In this document: piece after piece, positions 51,001-54,000 of the stretch
How positions within the stretch are numbered: position 1 is the stretch's first letter
How the letters are laid out: each line of letters begins with the position of its first letter
Origin: Escherichia coli O157:H7
GTDB lineage: Bacteria; Pseudomonadota; Gammaproteobacteria; Enterobacterales; Enterobacteriaceae
Length of the DNA stretch: 64,000 nt
Assembly (NCBI RefSeq): GCF_013167455.1
Contig: NZ_CP038328.1
Reading direction: 5' to 3' (one strand)
Position numbers: made by a program

Positions 51001-54000
51001 GCTCTTTAACGCGTTCCTCCAGTTCGTAGACCCTGCATTGTTCTCTATCATCAATCAGATATAACCCAAGACATTCGCTTTCTACCCAACCGCCAAAATC
51101 ATGATCGTAATGCTCACATGAAAACTCACCGTCACCGTCCTTTGTTGGAATGGTGTAACTATCTAATGGGCCACCATATGTCGGCACATTTCCCAATGTT
51201 GGATGCTCAATCCACATGAAAAATGTACGTCCGGTTATTGGGCAAATATCTGGCCGCCATTGGTTACGAACAGCCTTGGTTTCGGATAATTTTTCAGCGT
51301 GTTGTTTTACTTCCTCAAGCTCAACACGCAGCTTTCCTACCGTTAGCGCAATCTCCTCGTTCTCCTGGTCGCGCTGTTTAATGTATTGCTGGTTTCTTTC
51401 CTGTTCATCCAGCAGTGCCAGCACAACCTGAGGTGTGGCTTTCATACGAAATGCCAGCAATTTTTGAGGCGTTGCTACTGTTTCAATTGCTACTGCCGCC
51501 TCACGCAGTGCCTGGTAATTAATTTTGCTCACTGGTTGCCTCCTTTGTGGATCTGCGCTGCGATGCACGAAAAAAAAGATTCCCGCGTATGACAGTTAAG
51601 AGCTGGTGCGAAAGCCGCGTTAAGAACGGCAGCATCACAGCCGTCATCGATATAGAGCGCAATTTTTTTCTCCAGGCGCGCTTTGGCTTCCTGCAACTGC
51701 ATACCCCGGCACGTACGCGGGATATACTCAGCAATTTGAGCGATAGATTTTTCGTTCTGTTTAAACATGATTCACCTCGACAGGCTTGATTGTGTCGATC
51801 AGCAGTCTGCGGCGAGTATTTTCTGCAAAGTGGCGGCGTCCGGTTTCTTTGTGGTAAAACTCGTTTTTGCCGACGACCCACATCCGCTCTGTCTGGTGAA
51901 GTTTTTTTACCTGCGGGCCGTCTTTGGTGATCACAATGCCGGTATGGGTTTTTACGATTGTCATGCCACTACCTCTTCGAATTTCAACTCCAATTGGTCA
52001 CCCCAGATTTCACATGATTCGGAACACGAACCAGTATCAAACCGCTTGGCCAGCACCATCGCTTGATACAAATTGCTGTAGTCGCTGTCGGCATACATCC
52101 TGGCAATCCCGTCAAGCGTCAGGTGACCACGGTACATAACGTCTTTACCTGTTCTGCGATGACCATCCCTGACGTGTTTGCCTGTAACCAGTTCATTAAA
52201 AACCCGCATCAGACCAGGTTCGTCTTTACATGCAAGCCCCAGCTTTTGCGTTGACTTTTTGATGCAGAAAACACAGTTCCCGAGGTGCTCCGGGATTTGC
52301 AAATCAAAAGGTTGTTTTCGCCACCACCGGATAACATCCGACTTATCAAAATCTGACAGTTCGGCAAGATACCGGACGCCCGGTTTCGGTTTCAGCCTAC
52401 GGGGTTCGTCTGCACGAATACCCAGCCACGTGATGTAGTTCCCTTGTCCGAAATGGTCATCGCAGTATTTTATGAAGGGGGTGAGTTTTAATCTGTCAGT
52501 GCAGAACGCGCCGCCGATGTATGGCGTGCCATATTTTTTTACCATGTCCATAAACGGTTTAAGCACCGGCATTCGCGTCTGAATATCCTTTGGTTCCCAT
52601 TCCGTATAACCATTTGGCTGCCCAAGCTCTGGATTTATATCGACCTGCAACACGGTTAGCGGAATATCCCAGAACTTCACAACCTCCCGAATAAACCGGT
52701 ACGTCAGCGGGTGTTCACATCCCGTATCCATGAGTATGTAATGAACGTTTTCACCAGCTTTTCTGCGTTGCTCCATAAGGTGGACGAGGTACGCCGATGT
52801 CCGACCGCCTGAAAAACTCACAACATGATGAGTGCTCATTTCTTCGTCTCGTTACGGGGAGGGGGTTAAATAGGTGGTAAGCTGGAATTGCCGGATGTTT
52901 ACCCGTGTCCGGGGTACGACCTCACGTTGCAGCGTACGAGAATGGACTATTGCTCAGTGTCGTTTGATGTCGGCTGAGGATATTCGCCTTGCTCTTGTAA
53001 CAGAGTTAGAAGAATGGAAAACCCCTCACGATGTGATGATTGATGAGTGTCGATCCCGGAATGATTGATGTTGTTAAATTCCAACATCGTGCTCCTGGCG
53101 ATAGCCTCAACGGTATTCCAGAATACTAATACATCTGTTTTCTGCTCTGTTTTATCAGCAACAGGAAGTTTGATATTTTGTTGAAATTTATTAATGCAAC
53201 CATTTTGAATATGTTCCTCGTGCTTTTCATTGTCATAAGCATACAGCCCGACAAAAACATCTCGCACGTTACGGGATATATTTTCCAGATTCGCCTTTGG
53301 TTCCTTTGTTAAATCAAGCACCGATAAATGGGCTTTAAGCGTATCCGCAGCTATTTTCTGAATATCCTCTGGTAAATCTTTAAATTGCATAGTATACCCT
53401 CCAAGAACTGTGTATTTTCTCGTGAAATATGAGCGATATGTCGTGACGTCCCTGTCACAGATTTCATCACACTGAGAACGTGCCGATGAAGGTTAAGATA
53501 TCTTCTTCTTCGAAACGCTCTTTCAGCAGGTCACGGAACTCTTTGGCAATTTCTTCTTCCGCAGCTTCAACACGCACGATACGTAGCACCAGAACAGGCT
53601 GTTCGCTTGTCAGAATGCTTAATCGCAGCGTGAATTCCCTGTTGCCCAGGCCCTCGTATGGGATGCATTCAAAGCGGAAAGTGGCAGGCATGATTTCTTT
53701 GCTTTTAGCCTCCACGGACTCCATGACTGAGCGGCTACCGCTGAAGTTTTGCTCTTCATATTCAGCACTGCGTTTTGCATCGATGGTAAGACGACGGACA
53801 GCAGAGATAGCCTGTTTGATGTCCAGCACATTACCGTCGCTGTCATAGGCTGTGAGGAAGTCGGCCCAGTCTTCCAGCCATTCAGCGAGAGACTTCTGGA
53901 GTTGTTTTTTGCCGTCAACGTCACGCAATGCGCGATATGGTGATGTGGCTTTCAGTTCCAGCAGTGCCTTGTTGTCAGCGTGTCCAGGTTGCTCCAGAGT

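What the first reader, a model, noticed from the sequence alone, without database searches (positions are those of the whole stretch)
52947..53390. AT-rich 147-aa ORF between the early-left operon and YfdQ-like gene
Its composition is lower in GC than its neighbours, suggesting a separately acquired accessory gene within the prophage. No function can be inferred.
Basis: inference. Interest (0 to 1): 0.35.

Follow-up and report, generated by a model that had tools for sequence, protein, structure and literature searches.

The report
Mosaic orphan gene in Stx phage
The flagged ORF is a real but ordinary 147-residue gene of unknown function in the early-left operon of a Shiga-toxin prophage; it is a shortened, shuffled copy of a small helical protein family found only in E. 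coli prophages.

Summary
The ORF is real: 52947..53390, minus strand, 147 aa, with a GGAGGG ribosome-binding site. It is AT-rich (39.4% GC; neighbours 48-49%).

The window holds an Oslovirus PA2-type Stx2a prophage at argW. The ORF lies inside its early-left operon, between yfdP-yfdQ and a lambda NinC orthologue.

It matches PHROG 1363 (unknown function) and nothing else. Pfam, NCBIfam, PADLOC, PDB and fold searches gave nothing. One deposited "NinB homolog" label is wrong.

The protein has three parts:
- a conserved 52-aa N-terminal helical hairpin;
- an AT-rich linker;
- an acidic helical C-terminal module.

A 260-aa version with an extra middle module sits at the same slot in another prophage, so ORF147 is an in-frame 339-nt deletion derivative. 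Two other independent in-frame deletions exist.

Other yfdQ phages (mEp460, Eeyore) carry a yfdR-like phosphatase gene in this slot. Yet 125 of the 126 E. coli genomes with this yfdQ allele carry the ORF. About 49 genomes carry an allele with a premature stop.

Most likely it is a dispensable early protein that acts by binding a partner; the target is unknown. Interest is low.

The parts
52947..53390 (-). ORF147 coding sequence (147 aa plus stop); identical or near-identical to RefSeq WP_001159716.1, 'hypothetical protein'
   Evidence: PHROG 1363 E=2.4e-64; 100% identical in Shigella phage Ss-VASD and 99.3% in PA2, VT2phi_272, ArgO145 and many Stx2a phages
53397..53402 (-). Shine-Dalgarno GGAGGG, 6 nt upstream of the ATG
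   Evidence: read directly from the sequence
53235..53390 (-). Module A: conserved N-terminal domain (aa 1-52), predicted helical hairpin; invariant M1 K4 L6 P7 Q11 A14 L22 K32 N41 R43 F46
   Evidence: alignments; pLDDT about 80 in the P0021 model; shared with PHROGs 9419, 2151, 6937 and 33007; all hits that carry a source name are E. coli
53136..53234 (-). AT-rich, low-confidence (probably disordered) linker (aa 53-85). It contains the in-frame deletion junction at 53167/53168, where module B of the 260-aa version is missing
   Evidence: GC 0.22 for codons 66-80; pLDDT below 50 for residues 50-84; DNA alignment with L019:5713-6495
52950..53135 (-). Module C: acidic helix-loop-helix C-terminal module (aa 86-147; pI 4.4, net charge -7). 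The same module follows a different N-terminus in PHROG 25397 proteins
   Evidence: helices 87-107 and 115-134
52877..52923 (.). Conserved 45-nt DNA element just downstream of the ORF (sense strand GAGGTCGTACCCCGGACACGGGTAAACATCCGGCAATTCCAGCTTAC). The same core follows ORF147 relatives in Rac/Qin-like prophages and belongs to the ydfC-dicF spacer. Probable recombination boundary; no stable RNA fold
   Evidence: 121-nt Qin-type version in 3310 of 5426 genomes; fold z = +1.04; no Rfam hit here
52874..53068 (+). Antisense 64-codon ORF overlapping the last 40 codons of ORF147. It is the 3' remnant of a 99-aa convergent ORF that is intact in a Rac-like prophage (L009/L010). Probably not functional here
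   Evidence: substitutions among Stx-phage alleles fall on sense-frame third positions (3,2,7 / 3,3,7 / 3,1,7); the antisense frame is broken by a stop in TL-2011c
53467..54288 (-). Upstream neighbour: yfdQ (DUF2303)
   Evidence: Pfam PF10065 E=1.6e-65
54352..54699 (-). yfdP-like gene (PHROG 204; Pfam PF27127 in the precomputed tables)
51961..52839 (-). Downstream neighbour: PAPS-reductase-fold protein, orthologue of lambda NinC (80% aa identity), here in the early-left operon

Best explanation
ORF147 is a genuine, dispensable delayed-early gene of the pL (early-left) operon of an Oslovirus PA2-type Stx2a prophage at argW. It encodes a small, soluble, acidic, all-helical protein with no catalytic motif.

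The protein has a conserved 52-aa N-terminal helical hairpin, a flexible AT-rich linker and an exchangeable acidic C-terminal helix-loop-helix. I propose that it is made only after induction or infection, as part of the antiterminated leftward transcript. I propose that it acts stoichiometrically by binding a host or phage protein, as the small proteins of lambda's exo-xis region do. In this view the N-terminal hairpin is the constant core and the downstream modules tune or diversify the interaction.

It is the in-frame deletion derivative (module B lost) of a 260-aa A-B-C protein found at the same slot.

Shown here: the ORF, its ribosome-binding site, family membership, module architecture, deletion origin, slot variability, restricted distribution and weak purifying selection. 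Inferred: expression timing, a binding mode of action and the existence of a partner. The target is unknown.
For: Coding and reality:
- Strong SD.
- PHROG 1363 at E=2.4e-64.
- Called as a CDS by PGAP in the annotated E. coli hits that were listed.
- A full-length 42%-identical homologue, P0021, lies in a different prophage type.
- Substitutions among close alleles concentrate on sense third codon positions.
- dN/dS is 0.33-0.85.
- Three independent A-C junction types (147/131-aa, 158-aa and P0009) all keep module C in frame.

Operon membership:
- Same strand and short gaps to yfdQ (76 nt) and ninC (107 nt).
- No promoter-like or terminator-like site in either gap, and site counts are at chance level.
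- The surrounding genes are RecT, YqaJ-type exonuclease, GamL, SSB-like, YfdP and YfdQ.
- Relatives always lie in early operons between the immunity region and kil/dicB/exonuclease/int.

Non-enzymatic binder:
- 16.8 kDa, pI 5.0, net charge -9, no hydrophobic segment.
- All-alpha prediction with four main helices.
- No Pfam, NCBIfam or PADLOC hit.

Dispensability and modularity:
- The slot is occupied by a yfdR-like gene in mEp460 and Eeyore.
- Modules A, B and C recombine.
- About 49 genomes match a Q132-stop allele at 99% or more.
Against: - No expression, interaction or phenotype data exist for this protein or any relative.
- Structure models are low confidence (pLDDT 53 and 67), and fold searches return only a family member, so 'binder' is an argument from absence of enzymatic features.
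- Purifying selection is weak: the N-module dN/dS is 0.85 against PhiR12_3, though from few substitutions.
- Many database relatives are the N-domain followed by unrelated short tails, partly from contig ends.
- One common allele carries a premature stop. This pattern is also what a decaying gene would show.
Confidence: 0.45

Rival explanations
1. It is a decaying, functionless remnant. The ORF persists only because it is short and recently derived, being what is left after deletion of a 260-aa gene, and it contributes nothing to the phage.
For: - dN/dS is up to 0.63-0.85.
- About 49 of 5426 genomes match, at 99% or more, an allele with a premature stop at codon 132, and the antisense frame is also broken there.
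- The intact 260-aa form is found in only 1 complete genome.
- Many relatives are N-domain stubs with unrelated tails.
- The slot is freely replaced in other phages.
Against: - The N-domain has 11 invariant residues across relatives only 26-45% identical to ORF147 in two different genomic contexts.
- Three independent deletions all preserved the frame into module C.
- The strong SD is retained.
- Third-position bias of substitutions is seen in the C module.
- The stop at codon 132 removes only a tail that is low-confidence, probably disordered, in the model.
- The ORF is retained in 125 of 126 genomes with this yfdQ allele.
Confidence: 0.27
2. It is a lysogen-expressed moron: a superinfection-exclusion, defence or host-fitness factor, separately acquired and expressed from the repressed prophage.
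For: - GC is lower than its immediate neighbours.
- It lies in a variable slot.
- The prophage carries other lysogeny-type cargo, namely a type II RM system and orphan antitoxins.
Against: - There is no promoter-like site in the 76-nt upstream gap and no terminator after the gene.
- It is co-oriented and embedded in the pL operon.
- It has no membrane segment, unlike SieB, Lom and Bor.
- It has no PADLOC hit.
- The mosaic boundary is inside the gene, not at its edges.
Confidence: 0.07
3. It is a diverged NinB/Orf-type recombination mediator working with the adjacent NinC, as one GenBank record (AP012534, 'NinB homolog') suggests. The suggestion presumably rests on lambda's ninB (146 aa) lying directly upstream of ninC.
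For: - Its position directly upstream of an 80%-identical NinC orthologue and its nearly identical length.
- It lies in a recombination-gene neighbourhood.
Against: - No Pfam NinB hit at E up to 0.1, or up to 5 for all relatives scanned.
- Profile comparison with lambda NinB gives probability 0.4%.
- A PDB profile search shows no match to any NinB/Orf chain.
- The ORF occurs without ninC in TL-2011c, PhiR12_3 and Rac/Qin-like prophages.
- A true NinB is encoded elsewhere in related prophages.
Confidence: 0.02
4. The important feature is at the DNA level. The region would be a recombination junction (the conserved 45-nt boundary element plus an AT-rich linker) or would host an antisense gene, and the sense ORF would be incidental.
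For: - A conserved element lies downstream in all contexts.
- Breakpoints cluster in the linker.
- An antisense ORF is homologous to an intact 99-aa ORF in L009/L010.
Against: - The antisense ORF is N-terminally truncated here and interrupted in TL-2011c.
- It has no PHROG hit.
- Amino-acid identity is similar in all six frames in the overlap, 20-25 of 45-46.
- Substitutions among close alleles favour the sense frame.
- The element has no stable fold and no Rfam match.
- A junction role does not exclude a protein function.
Confidence: 0.08

Closest known systems
PHROG 1363 and its module-sharing neighbours (PHROGs 25397, 9419, 2151, 6937, 33007), all of unknown function
   Same: Direct sequence membership: E=2.4e-64 over residues 1-128. 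The C module matches PHROG 25397 at E=7e-33 and the N module matches the others.
   Different: ORF147 lacks the middle module B that the 260-aa form (P0143, L019:5713-6495) and PHROG 25397 proteins carry.
Small proteins of the lambda / Stx-phage exo-xis region (Ea22, Orf60a, Orf61, Orf63, Orf73, Ea8.5)
   Same: Equivalent position, between the recombination genes and xis/int in the leftward early operon. They are small, modular and non-essential. According to the abstracts of PMC8614690, PMC10834534 and PMC10869804, those genes are early-transcribed and influence the lysis-lysogeny decision. An Ead/Ea22-like gene lies about 1.4 kb downstream in the same operon.
   Different: No sequence or fold similarity was detected. 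The resemblance is positional and in general character only. No phenotype is known for ORF147.
YfdR (HD-domain 5'-nucleotidase of CPS-53, reported to bind DnaA; PMC4776307)
   Same: It occupies the gene slot immediately downstream of yfdQ in mEp460 and Eeyore (and, from the yfdQ-yfdR-yfdS-yfdT gene order named in PMC4776307, in CPS-53), the slot ORF147 fills here (PMC12315714 describes the yfdP-yfdQ-yfbR cluster).
   Different: Unrelated sequence: ORF147 has no HD domain and no Pfam hit. Only the slot is shared.
Lambda NinB (Orf) recombination mediator
   Same: Same length class, and the same position directly upstream of a NinC gene; one deposited annotation uses this name.
   Different: No homology: hhalign probability 0.4%, and no Pfam NinB hit.

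Membership tests
PHROG 1363 (unknown function) | Significant full-length match to the family profile | tested here: met
   E=2.4e-64, residues 1-128 against profile positions 1-138 of 139
NinB / Orf (Pfam PF05772) | Sequence or profile similarity to NinB | tested here: not met
   No Pfam hit at E up to 0.1 or among 25 relatives at E up to 5; hhalign against lambda NinB gives probability 0.4%; the PDB profile search shows no match to a NinB/Orf chain
Ead/Ea22-like and other lambda exo-xis proteins | Match to PF13935 or similarity to a solved exo-xis protein structure | tested here: not met
   No Pfam hit. The PDB sequence-profile and Foldseek searches gave no significant match. The neighbouring 245-aa gene does match PF13935
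Ead/Ea22-like and other lambda exo-xis proteins | Location between exo and xis/int in the leftward early operon | tested here: met
   Gene order int ... Ea22-like, orf79, orf67, NinC, ORF147, YfdQ, YfdP, SSB-like, exonuclease, RecT, GamL
Moron (autonomously expressed prophage cargo) | Base composition differing from flanking genes | tested here: met
   GC 0.394 against 0.48-0.49
Moron (autonomously expressed prophage cargo) | Own promoter upstream and terminator downstream | tested here: not met
   No consensus promoter in 53391-53466 and no terminator in 52840-52946. These are consensus scans only.
Known anti-phage defence or anti-defence proteins | Match to a curated defence or anti-defence model | tested here: not met
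   No PADLOC hit. DefenseFinder runs on phi349 and phi367, which carry the gene, reported only anti-RM and Gam (PMC12502783)
YfdR / HD-domain 5'-nucleotidase | HD domain | tested here: not met
   No Pfam or NCBIfam hit
Delayed-early pL operon gene | Transcription from pL after induction | not testable with these tools
   Needs RNA-seq or a reporter assay; only operon geometry supports it

The most novel reading that the evidence does not exclude
The invariant 52-aa N-terminal hairpin (MxFKDLP...Q..A...L...K...N.R..F) is a host-targeting or oligomerisation domain confined to E. coli prophages. The A/B/C module shuffling and repeated in-frame deletions would then reflect diversifying selection on a polymorphic early-gene effector, for example one that counters a host defence or manipulates replication or division when the prophage is induced. 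That would make it a new family of modular phage host-takeover proteins present in outbreak Stx2a phages (O157:H7 clade 8, O104:H4).
Probability: 0.12. Interest if true: 0.5.

Novelty: already known. Interest (0 to 1): 0.18.

Why it matters
The gene is carried by clinically important Stx2a phages: PA2/PA8-type phages of O157:H7, and the TL-2011c/P13374 type of O103:H25 and O104:H4.

It sits in the early operon that shapes induction, so a role in phage development or Stx release is conceivable. Nothing found here points to one.

What this analysis adds is:
- the correct placement of the gene inside the pL operon;
- removal of a wrong 'NinB homolog' label;
- the A-B-C module map, which shows ORF147 is an in-frame deletion derivative;
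- the identification of the slot downstream of yfdQ as a swap site.

As it stands this is a catalogued hypothetical protein of low priority.

Tried and rejected
Searches that gave nothing for ORF147:
- Pfam, NCBIfam and PADLOC scans of ORF147.
- A Pfam scan of 25 relatives at E up to 5: only scattered noise.
- An exhaustive phmmer search of 1.84 billion representatives: 27 hits, with no functional annotation or domain fusion.
- A word-seeded search and a profile search of the N domain over 5.8 billion proteins: all hits that carry a source name are E. coli hypotheticals, with no fusion to a known domain.
- A PDB profile search: best E=0.33, EsxB, rejected as noise.

Structure:
- AlphaFold2 on ORF147 gave pLDDT 53; on the shorter-linker homologue P0021 it gave pLDDT 67.
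- Foldseek against PDB twice and BFVD once: no hit below E=0.04, and the best is a 52-aa family member from phage phi191.

Specific ideas tested and dropped:
- NinB homology, tested by hhalign, rejected.
- Rfam scan of the window and three loci: nothing in or next to the ORF.
- RNA folding of the downstream gap: not more stable than shuffles.
- The antisense ORF as the 'real' gene. It was considered because of an apparent 59% against 40% identity. It was rejected after a six-frame comparison showed all frames at 43-56% and after codon-position counts.

Literature searches for the accession, the PHROG number, yfdQ/DUF2303 and exo-xis/anti-defence found no functional data.
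Full report
OBSERVATION

The ORF is real and at the stated coordinates: 52947..53390, minus strand, ATG start, 147 codons. A GGAGGG Shine-Dalgarno sequence sits 6 nt upstream of the ATG (sequence).

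Its GC content is 0.394 (GC3 0.378). The downstream gene has 0.488 and the upstream gene 0.481. Only 2% of 444-nt windows in the prophage part of the window are as AT-rich.

The dip is not unique. The yfdP-like gene (0.408) and the SSB-like gene (0.442) a little further upstream are also AT-rich. Within the ORF the extreme value (0.22) belongs to linker codons 66-80.

CONTEXT

The right third of the window is a short-tailed Stx2a prophage of the Oslovirus PA2 type, integrated next to tRNA-Arg(CCT), argW (taxonomy). The 631-nt region is 99.4-99.8% identical in many STEC chromosomes, including O157:H7, O145:H28, O103:H2 and the WG5::PA8 lysogen. The protein is 99-100% identical in Ss-VASD, PA2, VT2phi_272, ArgO145 and dozens of Stx2a phages.

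Read along the minus strand, which is the direction of the early-left operon, the gene order is: cI-like repressor, a type II RM pair, Rha, small ORFs, GamL, RecT, YqaJ/lambda-type exonuclease, SSB-like (PHROG 743), YfdP-like (PHROG 204), YfdQ (DUF2303), ORF147, a PAPS-reductase-fold gene, orf67, orf79, Ead/Ea22-like, DUF551 and so on to the integrase.

The PAPS-reductase-fold gene is an orthologue of lambda NinC at 80% amino-acid identity, here moved from the nin region into the left operon.

ORF147 is therefore inside the early-left operon. Its position corresponds to the exo-xis region of lambda. The gaps to its neighbours are 76 and 107 nt and contain no promoter-like or terminator-like site. 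Across the whole region, promoter-like sites are at chance level (22 found, 19.9 expected) and no terminator-like site on the ORF's strand lies in either gap.

IDENTITY

The only family match is PHROG 1363, of unknown function (E=2.4e-64). There are partial matches to PHROG 25397 (C-terminal half) and to PHROGs 9419, 2151, 6937 and 33007 (first 52-76 residues).

The following gave nothing:
- Pfam, NCBIfam and PADLOC.
- Precomputed Pfam tables, which include recent families such as YfdP, GamL and KilR; they show no family for any relative.
- An exhaustive HMMER search of 1.84 billion representative proteins. It found only 27 relatives.
- A profile search with the N-terminal domain. It found 115 proteins; every one that carries a source name is an E. 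coli hypothetical, mostly short or partial, and none is fused to a known domain.
- A PDB profile search.

Structure prediction was also uninformative. AlphaFold2 models are all-alpha but weak: pLDDT 53 for ORF147 and 67 for the shorter-linker homologue P0021, whose N-terminal hairpin reaches about 80. Foldseek against PDB and BFVD returned nothing below E=0.04 except a 52-aa family member.

One GenBank record labels the gene 'NinB homolog'. Profile comparison with lambda NinB gives probability 0.4%. The label probably reflects only the position upstream of NinC and the similar length.

ARCHITECTURE AND ORIGIN

Alignments show three modules:
- A: residues 1-52, predicted as two helices, with eleven invariant positions across relatives only 26-45% identical to ORF147.
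- A low-complexity linker, residues 53-85, with pLDDT below 50.
- C: residues 86-147, predicted helix-loop-helix, pI 4.4.

The whole protein is soluble and acidic, with pI 5.0, net charge -9 and no hydrophobic segment.

Other E. coli prophage proteins combine these modules with a third module, B:
- A-B: phi367, 187 aa.
- B-C: P0013 to P0017.
- A-B-C: a 260-aa ORF at exactly this slot downstream of yfdQ in locus L019 (5713-6495, the same as P0143; the gene caller had used an internal start).

DNA alignment shows that ORF147 equals the 260-aa gene minus 339 nt, with the junction at window 53167/53168. It retains the last seven codons of module B.

The 158-aa variant (PhiR12_3) is a different in-frame deletion of 306 nt between GCAGRAA microrepeats. 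P0009 has a third junction, also in frame. Three independent frame-preserving deletions argue that the A-C fusion is translated and kept.

A full-length A-C homologue, P0021 (42% identity in the search), lies in a Rac-like prophage after ydfA/ydfC and before rha, kil, exonuclease VIII and int. The PPompW, Evi and L014 homologues lie between ydfC and dicF/dicB. A B-C protein lies in the replication/nin region of another prophage. The family is therefore confined to early operons of E. coli lambdoid prophages.

PRESENCE, ABSENCE AND MOSAICISM

- This yfdQ allele occurs in 126 of 5426 complete E. coli genomes, and the ORF147 region in 125.
- yfdQ is at least 99% identical in 113 records. The ORF region splits into bands: 46 records at 99% or more, 12 at 95-99% and 67 at 90-95%.
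- A sliding comparison places the change inside the ORF. The N-terminal half is 96-98% identical to TL-2011c and PhiR12_3. The C-terminal half is 89-92% and 67-86% identical respectively. In phi367 that half is replaced outright, while the NinC gene beyond it is again 86-95% identical.
- The TL-2011c/O104:H4-type allele has a stop at codon 132, giving 131 aa, and 49 genomes match it at 99% or more.
- The 260-aa form is present in a single complete genome.
- In more distant yfdQ phages the slot holds a yfdR-like HD phosphatase gene. In mEp460 one further gene follows it, and then orf67 and orf79, which are 88% and 92% identical to the window's copies. This agrees with the yfdP-yfdQ-yfbR cluster described in PMC12315714.

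SELECTION

Nei-Gojobori dN/dS is 0.43 against TL-2011c, 0.63 against PhiR12_3 and 0.33-0.36 for the first 97 codons against phi367. These are small samples.

Among close alleles the C-module substitutions fall mainly on third codon positions of the sense frame. This indicates weak purifying selection, compatible either with a fast-evolving accessory or with early decay.

MECHANISM

Nothing identifies a target. The best-supported reading (confidence about 0.45) is a non-essential delayed-early protein. It would be transcribed with the pL operon after induction and would act by binding another protein rather than by catalysis. The conserved N-terminal hairpin would be the constant element and the downstream modules the variable ones.

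This is 'works like' the lambda exo-xis accessory proteins (PMC8614690, PMC10834534, PMC10869804). It is not membership: no homology was found. Expression timing and binding are inferences.

The rivals are:
- A decaying remnant (0.27).
- A DNA-level junction or antisense feature (0.08).
- A lysogen-expressed moron (0.07).
- A NinB-like mediator (0.02).

SIDE OBSERVATIONS

A 64-codon antisense ORF (52874..53068) is the 3' remnant of a 99-aa convergent ORF that is intact in L009/L010. Six-frame identity and codon-position counts do not support it as the constrained frame here.

A 45-nt element downstream (52877-52923) is conserved after every family member examined. It belongs to the ydfC-dicF spacer that is present in 3310 of 5426 E. 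coli genomes. It has no stable fold and is best read as a module boundary used in recombination.

VERDICT

The gene is a catalogued hypothetical protein (WP_001159716.1, PHROG 1363). It counts as already known, and interest is low.

Noticed in passing
window 51961-52839 (-): An orthologue of lambda NinC (80% aa identity, PAPS-reductase fold, weak SspD/DndC-like hits in PADLOC) sits in the early-left operon rather than in the nin region. It is absent from the same slot in TL-2011c and PhiR12_3.
   Followed up: partly
window 52874-53068 (+); L010:603-902 (-): An antisense ORF overlapping the 3' end of ORF147 is homologous to the C-terminus of an intact 99-aa convergent ORF in a Rac-like prophage. 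Other Qin-like prophages carry different small convergent genes (PHROGs 10348, 10133, 2605) at the same place.
   Followed up: partly
window 52877-52923: A 45-nt element is conserved downstream of all ORF147-family genes. It is part of the ydfC-dicF spacer found in 3310 of 5426 E. coli genomes. It has no Rfam match and no stable fold, and it may be a recombination boundary.
   Followed up: partly
window 58595-58782 (-): Rfam matches to IsrK (61.7 bits) and C4 antisense RNA (78.9 bits) lie at and just beyond the start of the Rha-family ORF (57893-58678). The same pair is seen upstream of the Rha gene in locus L009.
   Followed up: no
window 48539-48624 and 49074-49163 (-): Two Rfam 'sRNA-Xcc1' matches (74.5 and 65.4 bits) lie in the region between the ORF6N-like gene and the DUF551 gene, near the orphan ParD/HigA antitoxin genes annotated in WG5::PA8.
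   Followed up: no
window 59296-61715 (-): A type II restriction-modification pair (BsuBI/PstI-family endonuclease plus an Eco57I-domain methylase) lies directly next to the cI-like repressor gene inside the prophage.
   Followed up: no
window 14529-14645 and 27760-27876 (-): Two identical-scoring ALIL pseudoknot matches (121.5 bits each), of the kind found at IS3-family frameshift sites, lie in the chromosomal part of the window. This suggests two copies of the same insertion sequence.
   Followed up: no
L019:5713-6495; L008:5001-5396: Gene callers disagree on this family. The 260-aa A-B-C ORF is annotated from an internal start as 164 aa in some assemblies. The TL-2011c/O104:H4 allele is a 131-aa product because of a stop at codon 132.
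   Followed up: yes
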